A stretch of DNA of 63,967 bases, counting the filler. It is 5 parts of 5 records of this genome, joined end to end, with 100 filler letters (N's around TTAATTAATTAA, not from the genome) between each part and the next. Parts side by side here need not be neighbours in the genome. Positions count along the whole stretch, not along the records: positions 1 to 17,576 come from SRR22947725_1544; 4 more parts are not named here. One strand, 5' to 3'. The number at the start of each line of letters is the position of its first letter. Within the stretch, counting starts at the first letter, position 1. A program made the position numbers and the translations under genes. The notes under the pieces were generated by a model. The model saw nothing but the letters and a program-made list of their open reading frames with translations, ran no database searches and had not been told where the DNA came from. Positions 1 through 17,676 of the stretch are shown here, in pieces.

Positions 1-2
1 TT

Positions 3-32
3 AAAAAGCCCAGTTTACTGGGCTTTTTTTTT
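3..32. terminator. Intrinsic (likely bidirectional) terminator hairpin
   Basis: AAAAA-GCCCAG-ttta-CTGGGC-TTTTTTTTT: GC stem flanked by A- and T-tracts. Confidence 0.8.
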
Positions 33-48
33 ACTTCATACTTAACTA

Positions 49-1521: not shown

Positions 1522-1522
1522 G

Positions 1523-1921
1523 TTATTTTCTCCAACCGCCTCTATCGAAAATTCTTAAATAGGTTAACTGGTCATGTTCGGAGAGATTAATAACTTTACA
1601 GTAGTCTCCAGATTGAACTAAAACCACATCACCTGCAGTTAAATCATAAGAGTCTTTGTGCTCAACTCCATATGATGGATCAGATCCATGGCCTTCATCT
1701 GAATTCATGTACTCTACGACTTCCATGGAGCCTCTCCCATTAGTTATTACATAGACAACATCTGAATCTATCAGTTTATGGCCTTGTGTGCACTTGCCAG
1801 GCTGAATAACTGTTTTACTTGCTATAACCCTCTCGAGTAAATCATTAGTCCACACTGCATAGTCCTCATTAACGTTATGAGGTGATCCGCCAACTCTGAA
1901 ATTATTATATTTTTTTGCCAT
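1523..1921 (-). CDS. Cupin-domain protein with degenerate metal-binding residues
   Basis: PGKCTQGH...VYVITNGRG and AGDVVLVQSGDYCKVIN follow the cupin motif 1/2 pattern. Confidence 0.7.
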   Translation of the reverse strand: MAKKYNNFRVGGSPHNVNEDYAVWTNDLLERVIASKTVIQPGKCTQGHKLIDSDVVYVITNGRGSMEVVEYMNSDEGHGSDPSYGVEHKDSYDLTAGDVVLVQSGDYCKVINLSEHDQLTYLRIFDRGGWRK

Positions 1922-2017
1922 AATTTTTTATATATGTATTTTTATACAATTATAGTTATTTAAGCTAAACATGCCAGTAAATAGTATCTTAGCCTGTTGT
2001 TATTGGTAGATATAAAA

Positions 2018-2023
2018 TATAAT
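2018..2023 (+). promoter_or_regulatory. Sigma70 -10 element for the metY leader
   Basis: Perfect TATAAT placed so that transcription would start at about the 5' edge of the riboswitch. Confidence 0.6.
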
Positions 2024-2026
2024 GTG

Positions 2027-2077
2027 TTAGCGCTTATTTGATATCAGCTTGCCGGCGCTAAAAAATAGGCTAAAGAG
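2027..2077 (+). ncRNA. SAM-II/SAM-V class riboswitch (H-type pseudoknot)
   Basis: P1 TTAGCGC(2027-2033)/GCGCTAA(2055-2061); loop ATTTG; pseudoknot AGCTTG(2046-2051)/TAGGCT(2066-2071) followed by AAAG; lies upstream of metY. Confidence 0.8.
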
Positions 2078-2140
2078 AACTTGTAACTATATTCTCCCAG
2101 TTGATGTTTTAATTTATTATTAATATATATAGGAAATATT

Positions 2141-3433: not shown

Positions 3434-3440
3434 AATAATT

Positions 3441-3974
3441 TTGAGCCAAGAATTAGTTACTTACATAGTTCTTGGCTCAAAAACTAGGCTCAAAGGTACA
3501 AAACTACCTCCAAATAATAAATACGAAGAGTATTTGCATCTCAATTTTGATACAAAAAATGATATTGAGAAGAGTCTTGACGACTTAATTGCATTTTCTA
3601 AGGGCGAGTTGATCGTATTACTTCCTCCATCTTCTTTTCCAAATACTCAAGCCAAAGAGGCACTAAAAAAAATAGCTTTAATAGGCTTGTCATCATGGGG
3701 ATGGTTTGAATTTAATTTAAAGAAAAAAAATTTTCTACAAAGCGTAAAAAAGATTAATACCTTGATCAGAAGTATTCCAGATTTGGAACAAGGAATTTAT
3801 TTTTCTAAGAGTTTATATTTTTCAGTTGGCGGAATTGGATCTTTTAATACAGCTCCATTCTCTGAAATTGCAAAAAGACTTTATTCAAGAATTGATCCAC
3901 AAAAACCTCTTTCACCACTTATAATAAGAACAAAAAATCTTACACTAGATTTCTATAATGCATCCAAAAGTTAA
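3441..3974 (+). CDS. Divergent, probably inactive glycosyltransferase family 2-like protein
   Basis: SKGELIVLL...WGWF...EQGIYFSKSLYFSVGG resembles the GT2 (TIGR04283-like) C-terminal pattern but lacks the DxD-like motif; TTG start. Confidence 0.45.
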   Translation: MSQELVTYIVLGSKTRLKGTKLPPNNKYEEYLHLNFDTKNDIEKSLDDLIAFSKGELIVLLPPSSFPNTQAKEALKKIALIGLSSWGWFEFNLKKKNFLQSVKKINTLIRSIPDLEQGIYFSKSLYFSVGGIGSFNTAPFSEIAKRLYSRIDPQKPLSPLIIRTKNLTLDFYNASKS

Positions 3975-4536
3975 AGCAACAAACCTAAGTTATAAAATTA
4001 ATGAAAAGAAATTATTTCAAAATATTTCCTTTGAGCTTATGGCAGGAAAAGCTATTCATATCCAGGGAGATAATGGTTCTGGTAAGACAACTCTTTTAAA
4101 AATTATATGCGGCTTAACAAATCAAGTTAAGGGTGAAATAGAAAAAAAACTTGATAAACAAATATGTTTTTTAGGGCATAAAAATGCCTTAAAACAGTAT
4201 CTCACAGTAGAGGAAAACTTATCGCTTCTTAATATAATTAATCACCCAGACCTCAAACAGCACCTTATTGAATTTAAACTGGATAAAAGTCTTGATATAA
4301 ACCTATCAAGCCTGTCTTTTGGTCAGCAAAAAAAGATTGCTCTATTAAGAGTCTTTTTAAATAATTCTGATCTAATTATTCTAGATGAGCCATGTGTAGG
4401 CTTAGATAATCAATCTCAAAATTACTTATGTAGATTCTTAAATAAAGAGTTAAAGCTTGAAAAGTCAATTTTGTTTTCTTCGCATATTTCGTTAGACATC
4501 AATTCAGAAAAATTAAATTTAAGTAACCAAGTATGA
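3958..4536 (+). CDS. ccmA: Heme export ABC transporter ATP-binding protein
   Basis: Walker A GDNGSGKTT, FLGHKNALK, LSFGQQKK, ILDEP; first gene of the ccm cluster. Confidence 0.9.
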   Translation: MHPKVKATNLSYKINEKKLFQNISFELMAGKAIHIQGDNGSGKTTLLKIICGLTNQVKGEIEKKLDKQICFLGHKNALKQYLTVEENLSLLNIINHPDLKQHLIEFKLDKSLDINLSSLSFGQQKKIALLRVFLNNSDLIILDEPCVGLDNQSQNYLCRFLNKELKLEKSILFSSHISLDINSEKLNLSNQV

Positions 4537-5180
4537 ATATAATAAAATTTGAATTACTTAAACTTAGAAGTAAATCTAGAGGATGGCTTGGACCTATTTT
4601 GGTATTTATTTTAATAATGGTTGCCTTCCCTTTGACTGTGGAAATATCTAACAAAGATTTAGGTAAGTCATTTTTTGCAGTTTTATGGATAGCGATACTT
4701 CTTGTAATGATGCTGGCAACTGAAGATATTTTTTTAGAAGACTTTAATGATGGTTCTTTGGAGCAGTTTGCAATTTCAAATATTAGTTTGCCTTATATTA
4801 TTGCTGTGAAAATTTTTATTTATTGGTTATTAATAGGGGTGCCTATATCTATTATTGGATCTTTGTTTTGTTTGGGTTTTACTAACTCAAGTAATCTTGC
4901 TATTAATATATTTCCTATTTTGCTTATAACATCATATATATTTATTAATGTTTTTAGTTTTGGAAATGCCTTAAGTCTTACGAAGGGGTCGGTTCTTGGC
5001 ACCCTAGTAACATTACCATTATTACTTCCATTACTCATTGTTTTGGGGAAAGCTGTTATTTCTATTAATCTTAATTTAAATTATTTGGGTTTTGTTGCTC
5101 TGCTTTTAGGCGTCTTATCGATTATAATATTTTTAATTCCATTAATTATTTCTTATATTATTAGAGCTCACTTAGAATAA
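4533..5180 (+). CDS. ccmB: Heme exporter permease
   Basis: FLEDFNDGSLEQ motif, LPLLLPLLI, multiple TM segments. Confidence 0.9.
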   Translation: MNIIKFELLKLRSKSRGWLGPILVFILIMVAFPLTVEISNKDLGKSFFAVLWIAILLVMMLATEDIFLEDFNDGSLEQFAISNISLPYIIAVKIFIYWLLIGVPISIIGSLFCLGFTNSSNLAINIFPILLITSYIFINVFSFGNALSLTKGSVLGTLVTLPLLLPLLIVLGKAVISINLNLNYLGFVALLLGVLSIIIFLIPLIISYIIRAHLE

Positions 5181-5206
5181 TTTTTGGTCATAGAGAATAT
5201 CTTATT

Positions 5207-5938
5207 GTGATAAAAAAATTTATACATCAATTTGCTTCGCCTAAGACCTACATGTATCAGGTAGATAGGGCTTATTCGTATATTTTCTATATCTCATTGG
5301 TATTGTATTTGGTTTCTATTTTTTGGGGGCTATTTGTTACTCCAGAAGACTTTGTGCAAGGTAATTCATATAGGATTATTTATCTTCATGTACCTGCTTC
5401 TTTTATTTCTCAATCTTTGTACATTGCAATGGCGATAGCTAGTGCTATTTTTCTTATATGGAAAGTTAAACTTTCAGCATATCTAGTAAGAGCTATAGCT
5501 CCCATTGGTGCTACTACAACATTTATAGCACTAATTTCAGGATCAATATGGGGAATACCCACATGGGGAACTTGGTGGGTTTGGGATGCAAGAATTGTGT
5601 CCACTTTGATACTATTTATTATGTATCTTGGCTTAATATCTTTGCATGATTCGTTTAGTAATCACGAAAAAGCAGATAAGTTTCTTTCAATATTAGTTCT
5701 TGTTGGCTCAGTAAATATTCCAATCATTAAAATGTCTGTGGAGTGGTGGAGCACCCTTCATCAACCAGCATCAATAACAATATCAGATAAACCTGCTATA
5801 GATTTAGTTATGCTGTATCCACTATTTGGTTCGATAGTTGGTTTTGCTGGAATAGTCACGTGCTTAGTTATTCTTTCATCAAAATTACAGATACTGAGAA
5901 GAGAAAGAAATAAATCATGGATAAAAAACTATGTTTAA
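5207..5938 (+). CDS. ccmC: Heme exporter/chaperone-loading protein
   Basis: IIYLHVP, WWD motif WGIPTWGTWWVWDAR, WWSTLHQ. Confidence 0.95.
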   Translation: MIKKFIHQFASPKTYMYQVDRAYSYIFYISLVLYLVSIFWGLFVTPEDFVQGNSYRIIYLHVPASFISQSLYIAMAIASAIFLIWKVKLSAYLVRAIAPIGATTTFIALISGSIWGIPTWGTWWVWDARIVSTLILFIMYLGLISLHDSFSNHEKADKFLSILVLVGSVNIPIIKMSVEWWSTLHQPASITISDKPAIDLVMLYPLFGSIVGFAGIVTCLVILSSKLQILRRERNKSWIKNYV

Positions 5939-6104
5939 TTTTGAATTTAACTCCTTGGCTGAGGCCTTTTTAATGCAAAGTCAAAATGGTCAAAATCATG
6001 GTATTTTTGTTTGGACTGTCCTCATAATTGTTTTCGTATCCATTTTAGCTACATTTATTTTCTATAAAATGAGTATTAAAAAAATCACTAAGAAATTAAA
6101 ATGA
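5931..6104 (+). CDS. ccmD: Heme exporter protein D (57 aa, absent from the ORF track)
   Basis: Manual translation MFNFEFNSLAEAFLMQSQNGQNHGIFVWTVLIIVFVSILATFIFYKMSIKKITKKLK; single TM, basic tail, overlaps ccmC stop and ccmE start. Confidence 0.85.
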   Translation: MFNFEFNSLAEAFLMQSQNGQNHGIFVWTVLIIVFVSILATFIFYKMSIKKITKKLK

Positions 6105-6505
6105 AAGCTATTAGAAAACAAAGATTAATAACAGTTTTATTAATTTTAGCTACCTCAGCAACTGGCTCATTTTTAATTATTCGTGCTCTTGATTCTAATC
6201 TAGATTTTTTCTTTACACCCTCTGAAATATATAAAGAAGAAATACCTAACAACAAAAGAATTAAAGTTGGCGGTATGGTTTTAGAAGGCTCTGTTCTTAG
6301 AGACAAGACAAATATTTCTTTTGTAATAACAGATTACCAGGGATCAATAAGTGTTGAGTTTGATGGCATTGTCCCAGATTTGTTTAAAGAGGGTAGCGGT
6401 GTTGTTGTTCTGGGCTATTTAAGAGATAAAACTTTAGTAGCAGAAGATGTTTTAGCAAAACATGATGAAAATTACATGCCTCCAAGCATCGATATAAAAA
6501 ATTAA
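6101..6505 (+). CDS. ccmE: Heme chaperone
   Basis: VGGMV, PDLFKEG, heme-binding LAKHDENYMPP. Confidence 0.95.
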   Translation: MKAIRKQRLITVLLILATSATGSFLIIRALDSNLDFFFTPSEIYKEEIPNNKRIKVGGMVLEGSVLRDKTNISFVITDYQGSISVEFDGIVPDLFKEGSGVVVLGYLRDKTLVAEDVLAKHDENYMPPSIDIKN

Positions 6506-8401
6506 ATGTTAATAGAGATAGCCCATTTCCTTTCCATTCTTTCAACAGGATTATTTTTTATATGCTTTATCTTTTCATTCTTTTTAAACTCTAAAGATAT
6601 ATTTATTATTAACCTAGTTTCTAGAATATACTCACACAGTTTTTTTATATTTTTATCCTCATTCTTTGTATATGTTTGGTTAGCAATAAGTGATAACTTT
6701 AGTGTTTTATATATTGCTCAACACTCCAATATTAATCTTCCAGTTTTTTATAAACTTTCATCTATTTGGAGCGCTCATGAGGGCTCAATGTTTCTTTGGA
6801 TTATTTTCTTAACATCATGGGGCGCTGTATACAATTTATCGACTTCTAATGATCAACTTTTAAAGGCAAGAACGCTTGGAGTCATATCAATAACGTCTGT
6901 TGGATTTTTATTATTTTTATTATTAACATCAAATCCATTTGAAACTATTCTTCCTGTGCCTCCAGAAAATGGTGCTGATATCAATCCAGTTTTGCAAGAC
7001 CCGCTTTTGGCAATTCATCCTCCCATGTTATATATGGGTTATGTTGGCTTTGTAATAGCTTTTGGACAGGCTATAGCATTTTTATTTGAAGGTAAGCCAG
7101 AAATTAAATGGGAAAAGCAAGTTAGATCCTGGTCACTTGCTTCATGGTCTTTTCTTACTCTAGGGATTGCACTGGGTAGTTGGTGGGCATATTACGAACT
7201 TGGCTGGGGAGGGTACTGGTTTTGGGACCCAGTTGAAAATGTTGCCTTGATGCCTTGGCTTGCAGCAACTGCGTTTGTTCATTCTTTAAGTGCGTCTTCA
7301 AAATCATCTATTTTAAGAATATGGACATTATTGCTATCAATTCTTGTCTTCTCTTTAAGTTTATTTGGAGCTTTCATAGTTAGATCTGGGATCATTGATA
7401 GTGTTCATTCGTTTGCAAATGATCCTGAAAGAGGATTATATCTTCTTGCATTTATCGGACTTCTTGTAATGGTTTCTTTATTACTCTTCTCATTTAGATT
7501 TAATCTCCTCCTTTCAAATAAAAAGATTGCCTCTTTATCAAAAGAATCATTTTTATCGCTAAATAATATCTTCTTTGGAACGTTAATTTTTTCAACAATG
7601 CTAGGCGTCTTGTACCCTTTAATATATGAATTTATATATAATCAAAAGATAAGTGTCGGAGCTCCTTTTTATAACGCAATTTTTGTACCTATAACCTTAA
7701 TAGCATGTATTTTTTTATACTTTTCAATTGATTCAAAATGGCAGCAGAGCTTAAATATAAAATCGCTTTTTCAGCCCCTACCTATATCACTAACATTTTC
7801 AGCAACGATAGTTATCCTAGCTTTTTTTCAGTTTTCAATAACTAATTTGTGGACTTTAGCATCATTGCTAATAGGCTCAATAATTATCATACGATATATG
7901 ATTGTGATTTATTTTTACTTTGTGTACAGAAAGTTTACCAATATCTTCAGCGTTATCGCACATTGTGGCTTGGGTCTCTTAATAATATCGATAGCTTTAA
8001 ATGACAATCTAAGTTCTGAAAGGGCTTTAAATATCAAAATCAATGAAACAGAAATATATAAAGACCATCAAATAACTTTAAAAAACTTGAGAATGGTTCC
8101 TGGACCAAATTTTGATTCTGTAAAAGCAGACTTTTTAATAGAAAATCCAAATGGAAAAACTTTCACCTTAACCCCAGAGAAAAGAAAATATTTTGCTCGA
8201 GGACAAGTGACTACAGAAACTGCTATTCATGCATCTTTTTTAAAAGATATTTATCTAACAATTGGTGACCAGCTTGATGACGGAAGTTGGGTTGTAAATA
8301 TTCAATTTAATATATTTATTAGATGGATATGGTTTTCTGCAATCATGATGGTGGTTGCGGGGTTGTTGCTTGCTCACTCTTTATCGAGATCAAGGCCATG
8401 A
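6506..8401 (+). CDS. ccmF: Cytochrome c heme lyase subunit
   Basis: WSAHEGS, LAIHPP, WAYYELGWGGYWFWDPVEN, SVHSFA. Confidence 0.96.
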   Translation: MLIEIAHFLSILSTGLFFICFIFSFFLNSKDIFIINLVSRIYSHSFFIFLSSFFVYVWLAISDNFSVLYIAQHSNINLPVFYKLSSIWSAHEGSMFLWIIFLTSWGAVYNLSTSNDQLLKARTLGVISITSVGFLLFLLLTSNPFETILPVPPENGADINPVLQDPLLAIHPPMLYMGYVGFVIAFGQAIAFLFEGKPEIKWEKQVRSWSLASWSFLTLGIALGSWWAYYELGWGGYWFWDPVENVALMPWLAATAFVHSLSASSKSSILRIWTLLLSILVFSLSLFGAFIVRSGIIDSVHSFANDPERGLYLLAFIGLLVMVSLLLFSFRFNLLLSNKKIASLSKESFLSLNNIFFGTLIFSTMLGVLYPLIYEFIYNQKISVGAPFYNAIFVPITLIACIFLYFSIDSKWQQSLNIKSLFQPLPISLTFSATIVILAFFQFSITNLWTLASLLIGSIIIIRYMIVIYFYFVYRKFTNIFSVIAHCGLGLLIISIALNDNLSSERALNIKINETEIYKDHQITLKNLRMVPGPNFDSVKADFLIENPNGKTFTLTPEKRKYFARGQVTTETAIHASFLKDIYLTIGDQLDDGSWVVNIQFNIFIRWIWFSAIMMVVAGLLLAHSLSRSRP

Positions 8402-8928
8402 CTATTTTTATTAGATTTATAATAATTAGCACCGCTTTAATGTTTTTTACATTTTTTTATCTATACATAAACGATAATAAATACTACCCAGGAGCAGATT
8501 TCACTACTTCTAATATGCCGGATTTTGAGATTAAAGATTTATATTCTGAAAGAGTTTTTAGTGTTAAAGATTTAAATGGTAGCTATTTAATTAATGTTTG
8601 GGCTAGCTGGTGTATAACGTGTCGAATAGAGCATAGTTTTTTAGCTAAATTGGAATCTAACAATATACCAATTATTGGCCTTAATTATAAAGATGAAAAA
8701 GATGACGCTATAAATTGGATAACAAAGTTTGGTGACCCATATAAGTATATTATTCATGATTACAAAGGAGAGCTTGCTTTAGACCTTGGAGTCACTGGCG
8801 CGCCAGAAACATTTTTATTAAATGATGGAAAAATTATTGTTCATTATAGAGGTGAGGTGAATGACATGATTTGGAATGATGTATTCAAGCCCATTATTAT
8901 GAAGGAGAATATCTTTAATGCTAATTAA
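8398..8928 (+). CDS. ccmG: Thiol:disulfide interchange protein DsbE/CcmG
   Basis: NVWASWCITC, GLNYKD, GVTGAPETF; ATG overlapping ccmF stop chosen as start. Confidence 0.92.
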   Translation: MTIFIRFIIISTALMFFTFFYLYINDNKYYPGADFTTSNMPDFEIKDLYSERVFSVKDLNGSYLINVWASWCITCRIEHSFLAKLESNNIPIIGLNYKDEKDDAINWITKFGDPYKYIIHDYKGELALDLGVTGAPETFLLNDGKIIVHYRGEVNDMIWNDVFKPIIMKENIFNAN

Positions 8929-9295
8929 GATCTTTTTATTTTTCTCAATAATATTTTCTAGCTTCACTGTAGGTGAATCTCTCTATGAGTTTGATAGCAT
9001 TGAAGATGAAAAAAGATTTTATACATTAATAAAAGAAATTAGGTGTCCAAAATGCACAAGCGGCTCTTTGGCCAGTTCAAATGCACCGGTTTCTGAAGAT
9101 ATAAAATCAAAAATAATACAGTTGATAAAAGAGGGAAAATCAGATCAAGAAATAAAAGAATTTTTATCTGACAGGTTTGGCAATCAGGTTTTATATAACC
9201 CAGGTTTAAGCAAAGACACATACTTTCTTTGGTTTGCACCAGGTTTGTTTTTAATACTAATTCTTCTTTTTTTCTTTTTCAGAAAAAGAGCATAA
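8918..9295 (+). CDS. ccmH: Cytochrome c biogenesis protein CcmH
   Basis: IRCPKC motif, RFGNQVLYNP, C-terminal LWFAP TM. Confidence 0.92.
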   Translation: MLIKIFLFFSIIFSSFTVGESLYEFDSIEDEKRFYTLIKEIRCPKCTSGSLASSNAPVSEDIKSKIIQLIKEGKSDQEIKEFLSDRFGNQVLYNPGLSKDTYFLWFAPGLFLILILLFFFFRKRA

Positions 9296-10074
9296 TGATA
9301 ATAGTTTATTTGCTAGCTTTCATTTCATTATTTCCTGTATATGCCTACTTATTGGCACCAAAAACAAAAAATAAAGGGTATATTTTTGGCATTTCATTTT
9401 TAATTTTAATTTTTTGTTTATTTTCATTCGTTGGTAAATATTCTTTTCTTGGTTCTATAAAAGAACAAGAAATAAATAATAAAATATTTTTAATAATCGA
9501 GCAGGATAGTGAAATACCAGTGAATCTATTTAACTCATTTGATGCAATTATTGATGAAGAAAGCAAACTTTATTGGACCCAAAGTTATATACAGAAAGCT
9601 ATGTCAGAGCAGAAGCTTCAAGCAGCTGAGAGTCTTATTTCTTTTTCAGAAAAATACTTCATGACATCAGATGAGAAGTTTGTTTTTTATAATTTGTACA
9701 CTCAACTTCGAGATTTAAAGTTCCCTATTTTTGTAAACTCTAAATTTATTCTTAACCTTTCTCCACCTGCTGATTGTAAAAATTATAAAGGAAATATTTC
9801 GTTGTTTATTATGAATGGCCCCAACATACCTATTGCAAGTCAAAATTTCCAGAATTCTTTCGAAGTTTCATTAGGTAATAATAATTCTTCAATTCCTGGA
9901 TTTGATCTTGCTTCAGCCTACCTTAATCAAGAAGCTTTGGAGCTTAAAGCATCATTATTTTGTGTTGAAAAAAACTTGGATTATTTTTCTGAAAATGCCT
10001 TATTATTTGATCAAAATAACCATATAAATACCTATAATATTAGGCCAAATGAATGGTTAAAAAGAGAACAATAG
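9295..10074 (+). CDS. Divergent CcmI/CycH-like protein
   Basis: Position after ccmH, two N-terminal TMs, C-terminal GPNIPIA resembling the CcmI C-terminal domain; TPRs not obvious. Confidence 0.5.
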   Translation: MIIVYLLAFISLFPVYAYLLAPKTKNKGYIFGISFLILIFCLFSFVGKYSFLGSIKEQEINNKIFLIIEQDSEIPVNLFNSFDAIIDEESKLYWTQSYIQKAMSEQKLQAAESLISFSEKYFMTSDEKFVFYNLYTQLRDLKFPIFVNSKFILNLSPPADCKNYKGNISLFIMNGPNIPIASQNFQNSFEVSLGNNNSSIPGFDLASAYLNQEALELKASLFCVEKNLDYFSENALLFDQNNHINTYNIRPNEWLKREQ

Positions 10075-10107
10075 TTTAATATAAACGTAAGAAAATTATT
10101 CTCAAAA

Positions 10108-13095
10108 ATGCAGCTAAATCATATAAAACTTTCAGGTTTTAAAAGTTTCGTAGATCCAACGAAGATATCTTTTCCGACAAATTTAGTGGGTGTTGTGGGG
10201 CCTAACGGTTGTGGCAAGTCTAATGTTATTGATGCTGTTAGATGGGTTCTTGGAGAACTATCTGCAAAAAATCTTCGTGGCGAATCTATGGTCGACGTTA
10301 TTTTTAATGGATCTGAAAATAGAAAACCATCTGGGCAATGCAGTATCGAGCTATTATTTGATAACTCAAGTGGAAAAATTGGTGGCGAATATGCTTCATT
10401 CAATGAAATTTCGATTAAAAGAGTTATGACTAGAGATGCTCAATCTACCTATTTCATTAACAGCACAAAATGTAGAAGAAAAGATGTTCAAGACATATTT
10501 TTAGGAACGGGACTAGGCCCAAGCTCATATGCAATTATTGAACAAGGCATGGTTAGTAAATTAGTAAGCGCAAAGCCTGAAGAGTTAAGAACCCATATTG
10601 AAGAGGCTGCTGGAGTTTCAAAGTATAGAGAAAGAAGAAGAGAAACTGAGAGCAGAATCAAAAAAACTAAAGAAAATTTATCTAGAGTTAAAGATATTAA
10701 AGATGAGATTGAGAGGTTAATCAGAAGGCTCGAAAATCAAGCAAATGCTGCAGAAAAATATAATCAATTTAAAAAAGATGAAAGTCAGAAGCAAACCGAT
10801 ATTGCAATACTATACTCACTTGAGGCTAAAAATAATCGAGATAAACTTCAAAAAAATCTTGATGCGTTAAATAGAGATTTAAAAATCAAGCAGGCTGAAT
10901 CAGATTCAAAACAAGCTCAAATTGATGAACATAGAACACAAAATGCTTCTGTTGTAGATGCATATGAAAATGCTCAAAAAAACTTCTATTCGATAGGTGC
11001 TGATATAGCTAAATATGAATCAGATCTTCAAAATGTTAGCAAATTAGAAATTTCTAATACAGATGCTCTCGAAAGAGCAAAAACAAGCTATCAAGATGCT
11101 GTTGAAAAAGAATCAAGTTTCAAGGATTTAAGCCCTAAAGAAAAAGAATTAAAACTAGATATTGCTATTGTAAAAGCTCTTGATGCTCTTAAGCAAAAAA
11201 GTATTATTGATGTCTCCATAAATCCCTTAGAGGAAAAAATTGCTCAAAAACAACATGAACTCGACTCAAAACAAAATATTGTAGATGCAGCTAAAGCAGA
11301 TCAGACTGAAATTACCGAAGAAATCAAAATTCTTCAACAACAAAAATATTCTATTGAGGCTGATATTGCAAGACTTGAGGGGGCACTTCAGAACCTCAAT
11401 AAGATAGAAGAGAACGCAAGATTAGATTTTGAGAAAGCAAGCAGTAATTATTCTGATGCATTGCAAAAAGAGGCCAATAACGAACACTTGACCCCAAAAG
11501 AAAAAGCTATTCATTTACTTGATTCTATCACCGAACTATTGAAAGCATTTGGCTCTAAAGCAGATTCATTAAACTCCAAGGTTGATGAATTAAAAGTACT
11601 GCTAATAAATATCCTTAAAATTGCATCAGATCAATCTAAAAATTATACAGCTGATTTTTTAAACAGAAAGAATCAACTAGAAGATCTTATCAGAACAACA
11701 TCTGAAGATGTATTCTCTAAAAATAAAGAATTATCTGAATTAAAAGAAAAGAATATAAAAATTAAAAATGAGTTGGACTCTGGGTTGGAAAACCAGCGTA
11801 ATGTTGATGAAAAAATTAGAGACTTAGATAGCAGCAAATCATTAGTATCGAATGAACTACGAAGTTTAGAAAAGAATATTTCTGATTACAGGCTTGAGTT
11901 AAGAACGCATGAGATTAATCTAGAAAATGCTTCCATGGTATTGGATAAAGCTGGTATAAGTTTATCAGAACTAGATTCATCTAAGTATGCAGGAGCAGAC
12001 CTTGTAAGCCTGGAGAATTCACTAGATGAGATTCAAAAAAATATTGCTGAATTAGGATCATTTAACCTAGCTTCACCGGAGGAATATTTAGAAAGACAAA
12101 AAGAGCTTAACAATATGATTTCAGATGGCAAGGCTAAAAAACTTGAAATTCAAAAAGTTATGTCAGATCTTGTTGAAAAAAGCTCTATTGCTGAATCAAA
12201 ATTAACTGACATTAGACAAAAGCAGTCAGAATTTAATAACAGTTTAAGAGAATTAGAAAATCAAAAGTCTATTGCTGATCTTGATTTAAAATCTATTGGT
12301 GAGAAGGTTACTAACCTTAGGCTTGAGCTTAAAACCCATGAGATAAATTTAGATAACGCTAATACTAAAATTGCAGAATCTGGAGTAAATATAGAAAATA
12401 TTGATTTTTCAAAGTATGAAAATATGGATATTAATGAGTTGCAGAATAGTCTGACAGATATCCAAGCTAAAATTATTCGTCTTGGAGCAATTAACTTAGC
12501 AGCTCCTGAAGAAATTGCATCCGAATCAAAAAGAAAGGAAGAATTAGATATTCAGTATAATGACTTAACAGAAGCCCTTGAAAAACTTACTGGAGCTATC
12601 AAGACAATTGATATAGAAACAAAGACAAGATTTCAAGATAGCTTTGATGCTATTAATAATAGAATGAAAGAGGTATTCTCAAAATTATTTGGTGGTGGTA
12701 TAGCTGAGTTAGCTTTGACTGAGGATGATGCATTAAATGCTGGTGTGGTTATTATGGCAAGGCCCCCAGGTAAGAAAAATTCTTCTATTTCACAATTATC
12801 TGGTGGTGAAAAAGCTTTAACTGCTTTAGCACTAGTTTTTGCAATATTTGAACTCAATCCTGCACCATTTTGTATATTAGATGAGGTAGATGCTCCTCTT
12901 GATGATCTAAATACAATGCGTTTTATAAATATGGTTGAAGAGATGTCAAAAACAGTCCAATTTATCTTCATCACTCATAATAAAGTATCAATGGAAAAGA
13001 GTGATCATTTGATGGGTGTAACAATGCAGGAGGCCGGTGTTTCAAGAATGGTATCCGTTGATGTAAATCAAGCATTAGAATTTGCTGAGGCCTAA
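10108..13095 (+). CDS. smc: Chromosome segregation protein Smc (995 aa; atypical, no recognisable hinge, internally duplicated arms)
   Basis: GFKSF, Walker A GPNGCGKSN, R-loop AKNLRG, Q-loop IIEQG, EEAAG, signature LSGGE, Walker B/D-loop ILDEVDAPLD, ITH. Confidence 0.95.
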   Translation: MQLNHIKLSGFKSFVDPTKISFPTNLVGVVGPNGCGKSNVIDAVRWVLGELSAKNLRGESMVDVIFNGSENRKPSGQCSIELLFDNSSGKIGGEYASFNEISIKRVMTRDAQSTYFINSTKCRRKDVQDIFLGTGLGPSSYAIIEQGMVSKLVSAKPEELRTHIEEAAGVSKYRERRRETESRIKKTKENLSRVKDIKDEIERLIRRLENQANAAEKYNQFKKDESQKQTDIAILYSLEAKNNRDKLQKNLDALNRDLKIKQAESDSKQAQIDEHRTQNASVVDAYENAQKNFYSIGADIAKYESDLQNVSKLEISNTDALERAKTSYQDAVEKESSFKDLSPKEKELKLDIAIVKALDALKQKSIIDVSINPLEEKIAQKQHELDSKQNIVDAAKADQTEITEEIKILQQQKYSIEADIARLEGALQNLNKIEENARLDFEKASSNYSDALQKEANNEHLTPKEKAIHLLDSITELLKAFGSKADSLNSKVDELKVLLINILKIASDQSKNYTADFLNRKNQLEDLIRTTSEDVFSKNKELSELKEKNIKIKNELDSGLENQRNVDEKIRDLDSSKSLVSNELRSLEKNISDYRLELRTHEINLENASMVLDKAGISLSELDSSKYAGADLVSLENSLDEIQKNIAELGSFNLASPEEYLERQKELNNMISDGKAKKLEIQKVMSDLVEKSSIAESKLTDIRQKQSEFNNSLRELENQKSIADLDLKSIGEKVTNLRLELKTHEINLDNANTKIAESGVNIENIDFSKYENMDINELQNSLTDIQAKIIRLGAINLAAPEEIASESKRKEELDIQYNDLTEALEKLTGAIKTIDIETKTRFQDSFDAINNRMKEVFSKLFGGGIAELALTEDDALNAGVVIMARPPGKKNSSISQLSGGEKALTALALVFAIFELNPAPFCILDEVDAPLDDLNTMRFINMVEEMSKTVQFIFITHNKVSMEKSDHLMGVTMQEAGVSRMVSVDVNQALEFAEA
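10798..11508 (+). repeat. Diverged tandem duplication in the Smc N-terminal arm (2 x 120 aa)
   Basis: DIAI at 10798 and 11158; KQAESDSKQ/KQHELDSKQ; YSIGADIAK/YSIEADIAR; SPKEK (11131)/TPKEK (11491); constant 360-nt offset. Confidence 0.9.
11653..12510 (+). repeat. Diverged tandem duplication in the Smc C-terminal arm (2 x 143 aa)
   Basis: RLELRTHEINL (11890)/RLELKTHEINL (12319); SKY; NSL..IQ; LGSFNLASPE/LGAINLAAPE; constant 429-nt offset. Confidence 0.92.
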
Positions 13096-13724
13096 TGGAA
13101 CAAAATATTGATATATATCTAATTGGTTTATCTGTTCTAATTTTCTTAATTATTACATTTCTATTCATTAGAAAAATTTCAAGTTCTGGAGAACTAAAGG
13201 TAAAAATTGAACCTATTACAGATTCTTTTGAGATCAAAGAGATAGATGAAATAGAGGTAAAATCTCAAAAAGCCTTTGACTTTAATGAGCATGATATAGA
13301 ATATCAAGAACAAAAACTTGTTGTCCTTAATTTAATATCTAACGATAAATCTATGTTTGATATCGATCAAATATATGGCTTTATGACAAATTCAAATGCT
13401 ATTCTTACTAACGGTTTTTTCGTGATTAAAGATACAAATAATAAAGAGTCATTTCGTATAGCAAATGCTTTAAATCCTGGTACTTTTGAAAATGAAACAG
13501 AAACTTTTGCTATTCTTTTGGCAACAGATTTGAATAACGTACCTAACCCATTGAGTTCAGTAAAAGAAATGGTAAATTTTGCTTATCATTTTTCTGAAAA
13601 ATTTTATGCAAATATATGTGATCAAGAAAGAATGCCTATAACAAAGCAAATGATTTCGCATATTGAATCCCAGGCACAGGAAATTATGAGATTAAAACAG
13701 CTTAGCAGTTTAGAAAATAAATAA
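13095..13724 (+). CDS. zipA: Cell division protein ZipA (compact)
   Basis: N-terminal TM anchor, C-terminal FRIANALNPGTF like the ZipA FtsZ-binding domain; directly after smc. Confidence 0.75.
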   Translation: MEQNIDIYLIGLSVLIFLIITFLFIRKISSSGELKVKIEPITDSFEIKEIDEIEVKSQKAFDFNEHDIEYQEQKLVVLNLISNDKSMFDIDQIYGFMTNSNAILTNGFFVIKDTNNKESFRIANALNPGTFENETETFAILLATDLNNVPNPLSSVKEMVNFAYHFSEKFYANICDQERMPITKQMISHIESQAQEIMRLKQLSSLENK

Positions 13725-13742
13725 TTATGATTCTTAATTAAA

Positions 13743-15026
13743 ATGAAGCCCTGGAAAATAATTCAGAAATTAGAAAGCGACAATAGCAGGCTATTTAAAG
13801 AAGGTGTTATAGAAGATAATCTTCATGATATTATTTTACAAGAGGGGCTATCAATGTGTTTGGATGCGTTGGTAACATTTGGGGTCAAACAAGTTCCTGA
13901 ATCTAGTAATGACGGAAAAGGACTTGATTGGGATAAATTTAAATCATCTGCACTGCTTCTAATAAATAGGGAAAGAACTGGCCATGCTGCTAGAGATGAA
14001 ATTTTACATTTAATGTCTCTTGCTACAACAGAACAATGGAATGATTGGTATAGAAGAATTTTAATTAAAGATCTCAGATGCGGAGTAAGTCAAAAAACAG
14101 TCAATAATGTTTCAAAAAAAATGGGATTAAAATATAGCGTACCTGTTTTCTCATGTATGTTAGCTCATGATGGCGCCAAACATCCAAAAAAAATTCAAGG
14201 AAAATGTCTCGTTGAATATAAATATGATGGGGTTAGAGTCTTAGCTATTACAAAAAAAAATAGCACAACTCTTTATAGCAGAAATGGAAAAATTTTAGGT
14301 AATTTTCCGCATATAGAAGATGCACTAAATAAGAAAGAATTTAATAATCTAGTATTTGATGGAGAGGTAGTCAGCGATGACTTTCAGTCTCTCATGAAGC
14401 AAGTTCATCGAAAAACTAATGCTAAAACTGATGATGCTTATCTAGCTCTATTTGACATAGTACCTTTAGAAGAATTTAATAAAGGTAAAAGTAAGCTCAA
14501 TAGTCTAGAAAGAAAAGATTTGCTTAATGATCTGTCAAAAAATTTCAACTCTTGTATTAAACCGGTTGAATATGTAATCTTAGATTTTGATACCGAAGAT
14601 GGCCAAAAAACATTCTCAGGTATGAATAAGAAGGCATTAGAAGAGGGTTATGAGGGGTTAATGATCAAACCAATTAACGATATATACGAATCTAAAAGAA
14701 GTCACGCTTGGCTTAAGATAAAACCTTTTATAGAAGTTACTCTAAAGGTTACTCAAATTCAAGAAGGTACTGGAAAGCACGAGGGTAAGCTTGGAGCGTT
14801 TTCAGTTGAAGGAGAGGATGATGGTAAGTTTTTCTCTTTAAGTGTTGGAAGCGGCCTTACAGACGATGATAGAGAAAAATTTTGGAAAGCTAGAGATTCT
14901 TTAATAGGCCAATTAATTGAAATTAGAGCTGATGCTATCACTCAAAGTATTGAGGGAGAGCATTTCAGCTTAAGATTCCCTCGTTTTAAAACTTTTAGAG
15001 GCTTTGAACCGGGTGAAAAAATCTAA
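13743..15026 (+). CDS. ATP-dependent DNA ligase with N-terminal DNA-binding domain (T4/LigW-like)
   Basis: Motif I EYKYDGVR, SRNGK, III FDGEV, IIIa LFDIV, IV EGLMIK, V WLKIKP, OB-domain VGSG, VI LRFPRF; N-domain IKDLRCGVS. Confidence 0.93.
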   Translation: MKPWKIIQKLESDNSRLFKEGVIEDNLHDIILQEGLSMCLDALVTFGVKQVPESSNDGKGLDWDKFKSSALLLINRERTGHAARDEILHLMSLATTEQWNDWYRRILIKDLRCGVSQKTVNNVSKKMGLKYSVPVFSCMLAHDGAKHPKKIQGKCLVEYKYDGVRVLAITKKNSTTLYSRNGKILGNFPHIEDALNKKEFNNLVFDGEVVSDDFQSLMKQVHRKTNAKTDDAYLALFDIVPLEEFNKGKSKLNSLERKDLLNDLSKNFNSCIKPVEYVILDFDTEDGQKTFSGMNKKALEEGYEGLMIKPINDIYESKRSHAWLKIKPFIEVTLKVTQIQEGTGKHEGKLGAFSVEGEDDGKFFSLSVGSGLTDDDREKFWKARDSLIGQLIEIRADAITQSIEGEHFSLRFPRFKTFRGFEPGEKI

Positions 15027-15637
15027 TGAGTATTAAATATTTAAAAGTACCATTAATTTTTTTGTTAGGCTTAACACTTCAATCCTGTATGGCAACACCT
15101 CCTAAGAATCCTGACAATATCTGTTTAATTTTTGAGGAAAAAAAGAGCTGGTATACAGCTGTTATGAAGTCTGAAAAAAGATGGAAAATTCCGCCGTATG
15201 TATTAATGTCTTTTGTATATCAAGAATCAAGCTTTCAATCAGATGCAAAGCCTGAGAGAACAAAATTACTATGGGTTATTCCATGGAAAAGAAAATCAAC
15301 TGCAGTTGGCTACTCACAAGCTCTAAATATGACCTGGGAAGATTATAAAGAGGAAACTGGAAACACTAGGGCAAACAGAAAAGATTTTAGAGATTCAGCA
15401 GATTTTATAGGTTGGTATGCAAGCAAAGGCTACTATCAAGGTTTTGATAGGCTAGATGCGCGTTCACTTTATCTCGCCTATCATGAGGGATATGGAGGGT
15501 TTAAGAAAAAAACTTATAGAAAAAAACCCTGGTTAATTAAAGTAGCAGATAGAGTCCAAACAAGATCTACGAAATATCAACAGCAATACTGGGGATGTGC
15601 AAAAGAGCTAAAGAGGAAAAGGTTCTTTTTCTTCTAA
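15026..15637 (+). CDS. Lipoprotein with transglycosylase SLT-like domain
   Basis: Lipobox LQSC; YQESSF catalytic Glu motif, STAVGYSQA, DFIGWY, LYLAYHEGYGG. Confidence 0.8.
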   Translation: MSIKYLKVPLIFLLGLTLQSCMATPPKNPDNICLIFEEKKSWYTAVMKSEKRWKIPPYVLMSFVYQESSFQSDAKPERTKLLWVIPWKRKSTAVGYSQALNMTWEDYKEETGNTRANRKDFRDSADFIGWYASKGYYQGFDRLDARSLYLAYHEGYGGFKKKTYRKKPWLIKVADRVQTRSTKYQQQYWGCAKELKRKRFFFF

Positions 15638-15638
15638 A

Positions 15639-17576
15639 TTAGATATTTTTTATATCAAAATTAAGCTTAGAAAGCTCTTCGGTAAAGTTCTCACCAGCTA
15701 TAACGGATTTTTTAGAATCATTAAATAAATACTTTTCGGAAACTTTTACAAGATCTTCTAAAGTACATTCTTTTACTCTTGATCTAAAAAGCAAGCGCTC
15801 TTCTTGTGTTTTATTATCAAGCTCACTCATAAAATCACTCATTGCTTCACCGTAAGGAGATAATGGCTTATCTATACTTGAGATAACCCCTAGCACACCT
15901 TCTTCAAGCTGATCATTTGATATGTTTTTCAAAGACCATGCTCTAGAATTTTTAAATTCTTCAAACGTTTCTATACATTTTGGATCCCTATAAGAGAAAA
16001 ATTTAAATACTTTATTATTTGAATCTTGAGTAGCGCCAGACCCATAAGCACCACCTTTCTCTCTAATTGCCGAATGAAGATAGCCATTACGCAATACAGT
16101 TCCAAGAACAGTTAAAGCAGGAGCATCCTCATGCTTTGAATCAACTGATGGGAAAGCTTCTGCACAAAAACATACTTGCGATCCAGTAACCCAGCCAACT
16201 GAGTTATTTTGAACATCAACAAAATCTTGATTATTTAAATCAAAAGTTTCTGAATTAAATATAGTATTTAGTTTAAGGTCGGATTGATGTAATGATGAGG
16301 CAGTAAATAAATAGTTAGGTGTTTTTGATAACTTATTTTTAATGGAATGCAGAGCATTTAAATATAAATCAAATTCATTCTTATCATTTACTAACTTAGA
16401 TAATTTATTTGTATTATGTATAAATCTTAAGCCTGAAGTTAAATCATTAGTTGCTGCAATATCTGTTATTTGAGATGCAGCATTACTCATTGATAGGATA
16501 TGACCATTTTGAATTACAGATTTTTCGTTATCTGCAGATATAAACTCTAGCAACTCTTTAATTCTCTTTGATTCGTTAAAATTTGAATCACTAATTGTTT
16601 TTAGCATCAAATCCTGCATTAGCAGATCATTTTTTTCTAAGCTCTTGGATGAGAGCTTTAAAGCTAATTTATATGAGTTGCCATCATCATTCGGTAAAGT
16701 AATAAAGGAAGCAGAAATGCCGCCAGTTATTGAAGATTGATATCTTTGAATATCTTCATATGAATCTTGACCAAGGCCAATATCTGTTAATGTGCTTGTA
16801 AAAAGGTTTGCAACACTTAACTCATCCTGGTTTAAAGCATCGCATGGAAATAACATAGAATGATAAACGATACCGTTTGTACCAGTTTTGTAAAAATAAT
16901 TAGTATTTGTTTTAGTTTTTGTTATTACTGGAGATGCATAGTTTCTTGAAAGGGGGATGTCGTCTTTTGTTACCTTTGGAAGAATCTCAGGATCATCTTG
17001 TGCATTCTGTCTGGTTTCAAGCTCGTTAGCTAGCCTTACAATATCTTCCTTTTCTTTTTGTGATAAATCCCTAGTTTTTTCAAAGACTTTTTGCTGGATT
17101 TTATCTTCATTTTTTTTATTGAATTCAGTGTCTGGTACAAGAGAGTAATTCAACCTATGCGCATTTAAAATAAGATTTTTTTCTATGAGCTTTTCAATAT
17201 AATTTTCTGATTTTAGATTTTCTTTAATAGCATCAAATGCATTATCTAGATCTAGAATTTCAAGAGGATTGTCATTATGTATACAAGCTGGTAAACAATT
17301 TAACATTATTTGAAGCCCAAATGGCATGCCTGAGCCTGTTATTTCTCTTTGTCTTATCTCAAGTTGATGTAAAGAGGAGTTTATTAAGTCTTTAGGAACC
17401 CCATCCTTAACAAGCGATTCAAGACAGTCAATTATCAATTTTTCGACTTCAATATGCTTATTTGCATCCACCCCCTCGAGACCAGCTGCAAAAACAAGTT
17501 CTTTTTGATCTGCCTCAAGTCCTGTAAGAGGAGATGGTGATGTACCTAATTCTGAACCCTCTAGAGCTTTTCGAAG
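15639..17576 (-). CDS. M16C (PreP/insulinase-like) metallopeptidase, 5' part cut off by contig end
   Basis: TNGIVY, IREKGGAYG, FFSYRDP motifs; frame stays open to 17576. Confidence 0.88.
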   Translation of the reverse strand, partial: LRKALEGSELGTSPSPLTGLEADQKELVFAAGLEGVDANKHIEVEKLIIDCLESLVKDGVPKDLINSSLHQLEIRQREITGSGMPFGLQIMLNCLPACIHNDNPLEILDLDNAFDAIKENLKSENYIEKLIEKNLILNAHRLNYSLVPDTEFNKKNEDKIQQKVFEKTRDLSQKEKEDIVRLANELETRQNAQDDPEILPKVTKDDIPLSRNYASPVITKTKTNTNYFYKTGTNGIVYHSMLFPCDALNQDELSVANLFTSTLTDIGLGQDSYEDIQRYQSSITGGISASFITLPNDDGNSYKLALKLSSKSLEKNDLLMQDLMLKTISDSNFNESKRIKELLEFISADNEKSVIQNGHILSMSNAASQITDIAATNDLTSGLRFIHNTNKLSKLVNDKNEFDLYLNALHSIKNKLSKTPNYLFTASSLHQSDLKLNTIFNSETFDLNNQDFVDVQNNSVGWVTGSQVCFCAEAFPSVDSKHEDAPALTVLGTVLRNGYLHSAIREKGGAYGSGATQDSNNKVFKFFSYRDPKCIETFEEFKNSRAWSLKNISNDQLEEGVLGVISSIDKPLSPYGEAMSDFMSELDNKTQEERLLFRSRVKECTLEDLVKVSEKYLFNDSKKSVIAGENFTEELSKLNFDIKNI

Positions 17577-17676
17577 NNNNNNNNNNNNNNNNNNNNNNNN
17601 NNNNNNNNNNNNNNNNNNNNTTAATTAATTAANNNNNNNNNNNNNNNNNNNNNNNNNNNNNNNNNNNNNNNNNNNN
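17577..17676. other. Artificial contig spacer
   Basis: N44-TTAATTAATTAA-N44; abrupt compositional change. Confidence 0.98.

What the first reader, a model, noticed from the sequence alone, without database searches (positions are those of the whole stretch)
10798..12510. Nested (Russian-doll) duplication of both Smc coiled-coil arms
Seen: the N-arm has two 120-aa units (aa 231-350 and 351-466; exact 360-nt offset) and the C-arm has two 143-aa units (aa 516-658 and 659-801; exact 429-nt offset). Each pair is about one-third identical by eye and ungapped. The conserved Smc joint-proximal motif is therefore present twice (LGSFNLASPEE and LGAINLAAPEE). Architecture is head-N1-[N2-apex-C1]-C2-head. 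Inference: one event can explain both repeats, in which a whole arm-apex-arm cassette replaced the apex of a ~732-aa mini-Smc (995-120-143). That would lengthen both strands of the antiparallel coiled coil in register and re-extend a previously shortened Smc. The similar divergence of both pairs fits a single old event. Established: Smc function depends on discrete permitted arm lengths, so modular re-lengthening is mechanistically interesting.
Basis: partly seen in the sequence, partly recalled or inferred. Interest (0 to 1): 0.8.

Follow-up and report, generated by a model that had tools for sequence, protein, structure and literature searches.

The report
Matched arm duplication in hinge-less Smc
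A marine SAR86 bacterium has a chromosome-folding Smc protein that lacks the usual hinge, and both strands of its coiled-coil arm were duplicated in step, bringing a shortened arm back to about the normal length.

Summary
The 995-aa Smc (window 10108-13095) has two ungapped internal repeats. N1/N2 lie 120 aa apart (42/120 identical). C1/C2 lie 143 aa apart (49/143 identical). Their diagonal scores are 217 and 261; the best of 600 shuffles scored 79.

The organism is SAR86. No SMC hinge domain was found in any of 251 SAR86-order genomes searched. They differ from the long form by exactly 120 and 143 aa. No N-only, C-only or three-unit form was seen.

The long-specific parts (N2 head and C1) form one clade (100/99), so the long architecture arose once, from a primitively short form. 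On the head tree, long forms fall in three clades interleaved with short ones. Whether that reflects repeated paired deletions or exchange and sorting of alleles is unresolved.

The N2 tail and apex follow the host lineages. The extra material is therefore two matched arm sections around a retained apex cap, not a demonstrably contiguous cassette. The similar divergence of the two repeat pairs carries no timing information because the arms are saturated.

The predicted helix layout puts a second joint-like break mid-arm. The arm is about 335-345 aa, close to the canonical length.

The parts
10108..13095 (+). smc: 995-aa hinge-less Smc ATPase (the end coordinate includes the stop codon)
   Evidence: ORF. 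PF02463 SMC_N 175.9 bits and no SMC_hinge hit. TIGR02168 848.4 bits against a cut-off of 567.35. Fold matches to SMC structures.
10108..10602 (+). N-terminal half of the ATPase head (aa 1-165), with Walker A GPNGCGKS
   Evidence: Sequence. Strands and helices up to aa 168 in the AF2 model.
10603..10797 (+). Head-proximal N-arm (aa 166-230). By helix register it is the partner of the canonical joint
   Evidence: Continuous helix H171-334. 68-86% identical between long-form groups.
10798..11157 (+). N1, outer N repeat (aa 231-350). Its first 80 aa or so track the host (head) phylogeny. Its last 40 aa or so are closer among long forms than to sister short forms, and it ends at the helix break at aa 335-342
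11158..11517 (+). N2, inner N repeat (aa 351-470). Its head (351-430) is found only in long forms and evolves fast. Its tail (431-470) matches the N tail of short forms. Helix break at aa 457-462
11518..11652 (+). Apex cap (aa 471-515): helix, turn at 481-485, helix. No cysteine. Contains the most conserved arm stretch, about aa 491-514
   Evidence: AF2 turn. Invariant and near-invariant columns. Follows host lineages.
11653..12081 (+). C1, inner C repeat (aa 516-658), found only in long forms. It ends with a joint-like loop (615-631), helix (632-649) and break (650-656, LGSFNLA)
12082..12510 (+). C2, outer C repeat (aa 659-801). It is orthologous to the single C unit of short forms and ends with the canonical joint-like loop (758-774), helix (775-793) and break (794-799, AINLAA)
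12511..13092 (+). Head-proximal C-arm and C-terminal half of the head (aa 802-995): signature LSGGEKA and Walker B ILDEVDAPLD
   Evidence: Sequence. AF2.
13095..13724 (+). zipA-like gene. Its start overlaps the smc stop by one base
   Evidence: ORF. PF04354 ZipA_C 52.6 bits.

Best explanation
This is the Smc subunit of an Smc-ScpAB condensin from a SAR86 bacterium. It belongs to a natural hinge-less type in which the two head halves are joined by an antiparallel coiled-coil hairpin closed by a small helical apex cap. In the 995/996-aa class each strand of the hairpin carries one extra repeat: +120 aa on the N strand and +143 aa on the C strand. These repeats arose once, in an ancestor with a primitively short hinge-less Smc of about 727-732 aa, by duplication of matching sections of both strands. 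The outer pair (N1, C2) keeps the ancestral sequence and, by helix register, the ancestral pairing. The added sections (about aa 311-430 and 516-658) pair with each other between the outer arm and the retained apex cap. They add about 112-119 helical residues per strand, roughly 17 nm at about 0.15 nm per residue (that figure is recalled). They bring the arm to about 335-345 residues, the length of canonical Smc arms, and place a second joint-like interruption mid-arm. Shown: the repeats, the exact length classes, the single origin, the missing hinge, and the ScpA/ScpB genes in relatives. Inferred: the pairing, the rod length, the function with ScpAB, and how the protein dimerises without a hinge.
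For: - Repeat significance.
- Same repeats in other long forms and not in other length classes.
- Organism and length classes: 34 complete long genes plus 1 cut by a contig end among 251 genomes. Short genes of 727-734 aa: 43 distinct ones fetched.
- Clean 120-aa and 143-aa gaps.
- 33 long forms, down to 57% overall identity, align in 996 columns, so there are no internal indels.
- Hinge: no PF06470 hit in the window protein or in 7 other hinge-less forms, while 3 hinge-bearing Smc do hit. 0 of 251 SAR86-order genomes hit; the control rang in 10 of 14.
- ScpA and ScpB: 5 of 5 genomes searched, as adjacent genes.
- Single origin: the inner units form one clade at 100/99 and in 100% of bootstrap trees. 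By eye, all long forms shown share the PKE.ELKL + NI[SA]I..KAL junction, and most C1 ends shown share ISALGS.
- Short is primitive: basal short groups lie outside the clade that holds the inner units (99/92).
- Helix layout of the long and short models: the distance from apex turn to first C-strand loop is 129 helical residues in both. The C1 loop lies opposite the N1 break. Each C unit ends in the loop-helix-break pattern. This matches the published description of the Smc joint, in which the C part splits into four helices (passages read in PMC5526789).
- Natural Smc arm-length modes at 238, 341 and 515 aa, and a wild-type B. subtilis arm of 344 aa (sections 8 and 9 of PMC5344682).
Against: - AF2 confidence is moderate (mean pLDDT 71, pTM 0.34, alignment of 33 sequences). 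No coordinates or contacts were returned, so N1:C2 and N2:C1 pairing and the second joint rest on counting helical residues.
- The head tree is a gene tree, not a species tree.
- The inner units are long branches, so their monophyly could be inflated by long-branch attraction. The identical 120/143 periods and the shared junction motifs argue against that.
- The added helical length (about 112-119 aa) is not one published period (91-99 aa).
- How a hinge-less Smc dimerises is unknown.
- No genome is held for the window itself, so ScpAB was checked only in relatives.
Confidence: 0.8

Rival explanations
1. One reading: one event put a copy of a whole arm-apex-arm cassette (N2-apex-C1) in place of the apex of a 732-aa mini-Smc.
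For: - No half-duplicated forms were seen.
- The N and C inner units attach at the same place and have the same topology and rate shift.
- Both repeats abut the apex cap: only about 45 aa between them is unduplicated.
Against: - The product is letter-for-letter what two tandem duplications give, so the sequence cannot tell them apart.
- The model needs an insertion plus an exact removal of the resident apex.
- The N2 tail and apex group with the host lineage's short forms, not as one cassette clade (0 of 200 bootstrap trees; by eye). This does not exclude the model at the origin, but it gives it no support.
- The 'equal divergence' argument is void because of saturation.
Confidence: 0.3
2. The long form is ancestral to host groups A, B and C, and the interleaved short forms arose by repeated independent losses. 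Each loss was a pair of in-frame deletions of 120 and 143 aa.
For: - The inner-unit tree mirrors the host tree, (C,(B,A)).
- The N2 tail plus apex is host-like: the A3 long forms group with the A-sister short forms at 87/83, and the nearest rows to B-long are the B-sister short forms.
- The AU test does not reject inner units lying outside all hosts (p = 0.22).
- No sign of recent transfer: identical-codon fractions are about 0.3-0.6 in nearly all segments of all 9 pairs compared.
Against: - It needs at least 4-6 losses, each made of two precise deletions, with no intermediates seen.
- All short lineages show the same apparent breakpoints. The primitively short basal groups show that same pattern too, so it is not a deletion scar.
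- By the later splits the repeats were too diverged for homologous collapse.
Confidence: 0.35
3. The patchy distribution comes from exchange or sorting of pre-existing long and short alleles among SAR86 lineages. This means recombination between related lineages or a long-lived dimorphism, with conversion of the shared parts.
For: - Long and short change state at least 3 times on the head tree; starred branches force 3.
- Fewer events are needed: one origin plus two spreads.
- The inner clade sits inside host group C (96/81).
- Outer units, N2 tail and apex follow the hosts while only the long-specific blocks form one clade. That is the mosaic expected if alleles recombine wherever they are collinear.
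Against: - The AU test cannot reject the alternative placement (p = 0.22).
- The branch-length signal that seemed to show a young inner module was: likelihood-ratio test (LRT) p = 3e-6, C-stem ratio 0.34, and 0 of 100 simulations as low. Vertically inherited N tail and apex of short forms show the same pattern (3.7% and 3.2% against 23.6% for heads), so it is a property of the segments, not evidence of transfer.
- Lineages differ by more than 20% in DNA.
- No supported 360-nt or 429-nt deletion joints were found in the metagenome runs laid, and those data were thin.
Confidence: 0.45
4. The three long clades duplicated their arms independently (parallel evolution under a length constraint).
For: Long forms sit in three separate host clades. 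Arm-length constraints could favour similar solutions (PMC5344682, sections 8-9 read).
Against: - The inner units form one clade at 100/99 and in 100% of bootstrap trees.
- The periods are identical, 120 and 143 aa, in all 35 distinct long sequences (34 from genomes plus the window's).
- Shared junction and C1-end motifs.
Confidence: 0.03

Closest known systems
Canonical bacterial Smc of Smc-ScpAB (for example B. subtilis Smc, TIGR02168)
   Same: ABC-type head with Walker A, signature and Walker B motifs. It scores above the TIGR02168 cut-off. It has a long antiparallel coiled-coil arm with a head-proximal joint-like interruption. ScpA and ScpB genes are present in relatives. The arm of about 335-345 aa compares with the 341-aa mode and the 344-aa B. 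subtilis arm.
   Different: No hinge dimerisation domain. The arm is closed by a cap of about 45 aa. The arm is built from two diverged copies of each strand. There is a second joint-like break mid-arm.
Engineered Mini-Smc and Smc(zinc-hook) chimeras of B. subtilis (Burmann et al. 2017, PMC5344682)
   Same: Shortened or re-lengthened arms that work only in discrete length regimes, and a hinge that can be replaced by another dimerising apex (summary, sections 8-9 and the Figure 5 legend read). SAR86 shows discrete natural length classes and exact length conservation.
   Different: The SAR86 forms are natural, not engineered. The lengthening is by internal duplication of both strands. The apex has no zinc hook. 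The added length (about 112-119 helical aa) is not exactly the 91-99-aa period.
Rad50/SbcC
   Same: Head, long antiparallel coiled coil and a small apex instead of a globular hinge.
   Different: No CxxC hook: there is no cysteine in aa 471-515. The Rad50 models score 48-54 bits against cut-offs of 700-1087. The head and joint sequences are those of Smc.

Membership tests
Prokaryotic Smc (TIGR02168, Smc-ScpAB) | ABC ATPase head with Walker A, signature motif and Walker B | tested here: met
   GPNGCGKS, LSGGEKA and ILDEVDAPLD are in the translation. PF02463 scores 175.9 bits over aa 3-979.
Prokaryotic Smc (TIGR02168, Smc-ScpAB) | Whole-protein score above the curated family cut-off | tested here: met
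   TIGR02168 scores 848.4 bits against a cut-off of 567.35. TIGR02169 scores 403, below its cut-off of 729.4.
Prokaryotic Smc (TIGR02168, Smc-ScpAB) | Hinge dimerisation domain (PF06470) between the two arm strands | tested here: not met
   No PF06470 hit in the window protein or in 7 other hinge-less forms, while 3 hinge-bearing Smc hit. 0 of 251 SAR86-order genomes hit; the control rang in 10 of 14.
Prokaryotic Smc (TIGR02168, Smc-ScpAB) | Long intramolecular antiparallel coiled coil with a head-proximal joint (continuous N helix, C part split into several helices) | tested here: inconclusive
   The AF2 secondary structure gives long helices 171-480 and 486-861 and a C-strand loop-helix-break at 758-799. 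This fits the published description. No contacts were returned, so the pairing was not seen.
Prokaryotic Smc (TIGR02168, Smc-ScpAB) | Kleisin ScpA and ScpB partner genes in the genome | tested here: met
   PF02616 and PF04079 score over their cut-offs in 5 of 5 SAR86 genomes searched (3 with the long and 2 with the short Smc), as adjacent genes. The window's own genome is not held.
Rad50/SbcC | Zinc hook (CxxC) at the coiled-coil apex | tested here: not met
   No cysteine in aa 471-515. Rad50 NCBIfam models score 48-54 bits against cut-offs of 700-1087.
RecN | Score above the TIGR00634 cut-off; a protein of about 550 aa with a short coiled coil | tested here: not met
   20.1 bits against a cut-off of 407.85.

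The most novel reading that the evidence does not exclude
In SAR86, one of the most abundant groups of marine bacteria (its abundance is recalled), condensin works without a hinge. Its arm length is a discrete two-state character (about 200 or about 340 residues) set by a matched pair of coiled-coil sections. That pair arose once and has since been gained, lost or exchanged between lineages at least three times, always as a pair and never with an indel. This would be a natural counterpart of the engineered quantised-arm experiments. It would also imply that a helical apex cap of about 45 aa, or the heads and kleisin alone, can replace the hinge.
Probability: 0.5. Interest if true: 0.85.

Novelty: new variant of a known kind. 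Interest (0 to 1): 0.72.

Why it matters
SMC arms are thought to work only at discrete lengths, and the hinge is thought to be the constitutive dimerisation and DNA-handling domain. Here a whole order of abundant marine bacteria (its abundance is recalled) lacks the hinge. It also shows discrete arm-length classes that stay exactly conserved while the sequence decays to about 30-45% identity. One class was rebuilt to about canonical arm length by duplicating both strands in step. This gives natural, sequence-matched short and long pairs, with native ScpAB, for testing three things. How does arm length couple to loading or loop extrusion? What does a second joint do? How can an Smc dimer close without a hinge? 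Four literature searches (SAR86 + SMC; hingeless + SMC; SMC + coiled-coil + tandem duplication terms; arm length + hinge + Smc-ScpAB) found no description of hinge-less SAR86 Smc or of coupled arm duplications. Papers in subscription journals are not covered by these searches.

Tried and rejected
1. Apex homodimer by complex prediction (aa 436-545, two copies): no verdict (score 0.01, own fold uncertain, alignment not used). This is evidence neither for nor against binding.

2. Branch-length test for a young inner module. Edge-unlinked beat edge-proportional (LRT p = 3e-6). The group-C stem was 0.34 times as long in the inner units as in the outer units, where other branches are about 1-4 times as long. 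0 of 100 simulations were as low. I first read this as lateral spread. The control on short forms shows the same low stem share in vertically inherited N tail (3.7%) and apex (3.2%), so I withdrew that reading.

3. AU test of inner units lying outside all hosts: p = 0.22, indecisive.

4. Synonymous-site test for recent transfer: saturated in every segment, uninformative.

5. Metagenome reads and contigs. The long allele occurs in contigs of three runs from three studies, one of them spanning the whole stretch. The only joints had 24-36 letters on the shorter side, in single contigs, and none skipped 360 or 429 nt (the nearest skipped 358). The raw-read run gave 22 reads. No conclusion on polymorphism.

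6. Foldseek against the PDB: only confirms the SMC fold.

7. Apex compared by eye: mixed signal, replaced by the tree.

8. Calls that could not be made: the genome search 'relatives' (no genome is held for the window), the search of earlier findings (closed) and the listing of cluster members (database off). The taxa of the 906-aa and 941-aa hinge-less proteins therefore remain unknown.

9. Chance similarity or assembly artefact: rejected.
Full report
**What is in the sequence.** The ORF at 10108..13095 (+) encodes a 995-aa protein. Ungapped comparison gives 42/120 identities for aa 231-350 against 351-470. It gives 49/143 for aa 516-658 against 659-801. In a scan of all self-diagonals, offsets 143 and 120 score 261 and 217, and the next diagonal scores 81. 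Six hundred shuffles of the arm (full, position-mod-7, and 14-aa blocks, 200 each) never exceeded 79. DNA seeds show the same 360-nt and 429-nt spacings.

**What the protein is.**
- Pfam finds SMC_N spanning aa 3-979 and no SMC_hinge.
- NCBIfam TIGR02168 scores 848 bits against a cut-off of 567. Rad50 and RecN models fall far below their cut-offs.
- Walker A, the signature motif and Walker B are intact.
- The neighbours are ccmH upstream, and a zipA-like gene and an ATP-dependent DNA ligase downstream.

**Relatives and length classes.**
- The best 120 protein clusters (79-99% identity) are all exactly 995 aa.
- A scan of species-representative genomes names the organism as SAR86. It returned long genes of 995/996 aa and complete genes of 725-732 aa by match, which are ORFs of 727-732 aa.
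- In 251 genomes of the same order, 220 have an Smc match. Of these, 34 carry a complete long gene and one more carries a long gene cut by a contig end. The short class listed has open frames of 729-749 aa.
- A second query shows about 80 genomes with a different hinge-less class of about 806-830 aa, with open frames of 809-851 aa. A 733-aa class also exists (L111).
- I fetched 35 distinct long and 43 distinct short sequences. Their lengths are 995/996 and 727-734 aa.
- No frame near 852, 875 or 1258 aa appeared in the rows listed. In some searches and 209 further matches were not listed.
- The SMC_hinge family hits 0 of 251 of these genomes, while the control rings in 10 of 14 well-known genomes. 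It does hit hinge-bearing Smc of 990, 1003 and 1168 aa.
- ScpA and ScpB are present, adjacent to each other, in 5 of 5 genomes checked.

**Relation of short to long.**
- Short forms align to long forms with two clean gaps of exactly 120 and 143 aa.
- Thirty-three long forms, down to 57% overall identity, align in 996 columns. There are no internal indels, although inner-unit identity falls to about 30-45%.
- Only the 995-class has the two diagonals. Scans of 732-, 727-, 810-, 827-, 906-, 941-aa and hinge-bearing forms show only background.

**Phylogeny.**
- On a tree of the head domains (78 rows) the long forms lie in three clades. Clade A has 28 rows, including the window, and is sister to a short clade. 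Clade B has 3 rows and is sister to two short forms (100*). Clade C has 4 rows and is nested among short forms. The starred branches force three state changes.
- In unit trees, N1 and C2 follow the head tree. All N2 form one clade (88) and all C1 form one clade (98*).
- A careful tree of N-unit heads plus C units (47 rows, 225 columns) gives the inner units as one clade (100/99; 100% of bootstrap trees). That clade has the internal order (C,(B,A)). It lies above the basal short groups (99/92) and inside host group C (96/81).
- An AU test does not reject placing the inner units outside all hosts (p = 0.22).
- By eye, all long forms shown share the junction ...PKE.ELKL + NI[SA]I..KAL. Most C1 ends shown share ISALGS, where the outer units and short forms have II[RS]LGA.
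- I conclude that the long architecture arose once, from a primitively short hinge-less Smc.

**Limits of dating.** Inner units evolve 2-4 times faster than outer units on nearly all branches. Identities between orthologous inner units level off at about 34-47%, the same range as N1 against N2 and C1 against C2. Among identical amino acids, codons are identical in only about 0.3-0.6 of cases in nearly all segments of all 9 pairs compared. The similar divergence of the two repeat pairs therefore says nothing about one event or two.

**What exactly is extra.**
- Short forms match N1 over the first 80 aa or so of the N unit. Over the last 40 aa they match the N2 tail as well or better. They match C2 throughout the C unit. 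The primitively short basal groups show the same profile, so it is not a deletion scar.
- A tree of the contiguous N2 tail plus apex of long forms, with the N tail plus apex of short forms (85 aa), does not unite the long forms (0 of 200 bootstrap trees). The A3 long forms group with the A-sister short forms (87/83). The nearest rows to B-long are the B-sister short forms.
- So the apex cap and the N2 tail behave as host sequence. The long-specific material is two blocks, about aa 311-430 and 516-658.
- In B-long, the N1 tail is closer to C-long (58-73%) than to its own sister short forms (41-58%).

**Gain, loss or exchange.** I tested whether the inner module is younger than its hosts. Unlinked branch lengths fit better than proportional ones (LRT p = 3e-6). 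The group-C stem is 0.575 in the outer units but 0.194 in the inner units. None of 100 simulations under proportionality gave so short a stem. The low stem share covers N1 tail, N2, apex and C1. The control removes this argument. In short forms, which offer no reason to suspect transfer, the N tail and apex show the same low share (3.7% and 3.2%, against 23.6% for heads). The cause of the patchy distribution therefore stays open between repeated paired deletions and exchange or sorting of alleles. I lean slightly to exchange or sorting, because it needs fewer events and because no intermediates were seen. Metagenome contigs from three studies hold the long allele, but the data were too thin to test polymorphism.

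**Structure.**
- AF2 of the window protein (33-sequence alignment, pLDDT 71, pTM 0.34) gives this order: H171-334, break 335-342, H343-456, break 457-462, H463-480, turn 481-485, H486-614, loop 615-631, H632-649, break 650-656, H657-757, loop 758-774, H775-793, break 794-799, H800-861.
- The 732-aa relative gives: H171-333, break 334-342, H343-360, turn 361-365, H366-494, loop 495-511, H512-528, break 529-535, H536-598.
- The first C helix after the turn is 129 residues in both.
- Counting back from the turn in the long form, the N1 break faces the C1 loop. C1's loop-helix-break repeats the pattern that ends C2.
- This fits the published joint, in which the N helix is continuous and the C part splits into four helices (passages read in PMC5526789). 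The difference is that at the distal copy the N strand is also broken.
- The pairing itself is inferred, because no coordinates were returned.
- The strands measure about 310 and 376 aa from helix start to helix end. By the published head-to-apex measure the arm is about 335-345 aa. That compares with natural modes at 238, 341 and 515 aa and the 344-aa B. subtilis arm (sections 8 and 9 of PMC5344682 read).
- The short form has an arm of about 200 aa.

**Verdict.** The re-lengthening reading is supported. The single nested event remains possible but is untestable from sequence, and the extra material is best described as a matched pair of arm sections around a retained apex cap. The wider context, a hinge-less Smc throughout the sampled SAR86 order with discrete and exactly conserved length classes, is the more notable result.

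Noticed in passing
window 17578-17676 and 37887-about 37980: The window is not one contig. Runs of N with a TTAATTAATTAA linker join three pieces. smc lies on the first piece (1-17577).
   Followed up: partly
window 17677-37886: The middle piece has 52-61% GC against about 30% for its neighbours, with razor-sharp edges at the spacers. Its genes include BioY, SURF1, PAC2, two WYL/PafC-like regulators, Sir2 and TatC. It is probably a foreign contig in the bin, not an island. The actinobacterial flavour of this gene set is recalled, not tested.
   Followed up: partly
window 13095-15026: smc is followed by a 209-aa ZipA_C-domain protein, whose start overlaps the smc stop by one base, and by an ATP-dependent DNA ligase (PF01068 + PF14743). 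The usual gammaproteobacterial smc-zipA-ligA order with an NAD-dependent ligase is recalled from memory.
   Followed up: no
L108, L109, L110, L111; P0131, P0148: Other SAR86-order lineages carry hinge-less Smc of other discrete lengths and without internal repeats. About 806-830 aa occurs in about 80 of 251 genomes; a 733-aa class was also seen (L111).
   Followed up: partly
P0225 (906 aa), P0259 (941 aa): Two further Smc with no SMC_hinge hit, from unknown AT-rich sources, about 50% identical to the SAR86 heads. Hinge-less Smc may not be confined to SAR86. The cluster look-up that might have named the sources was unavailable.
   Followed up: partly
P0141 (990 aa), P0241 (1003 aa): Hinge-bearing Smc of about 1000 aa, with short arms and a hinge. 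This is a different route to a protein of similar total length.
   Followed up: no
window 10702-10797 against 11062-11157 (aa 199-230 against 319-350): The 120-aa diagonal runs weakly beyond one unit (score 217 against 192). This hints that the joint-facing N segment resembles the N-unit tail. It may be chance.
   Followed up: no
window 11578-11649 (aa 491-514): The stretch just after the apex turn is the most conserved part of the whole arm in both long and short forms (many invariant or near-invariant columns). It is a candidate contact surface for dimerisation.
   Followed up: partly
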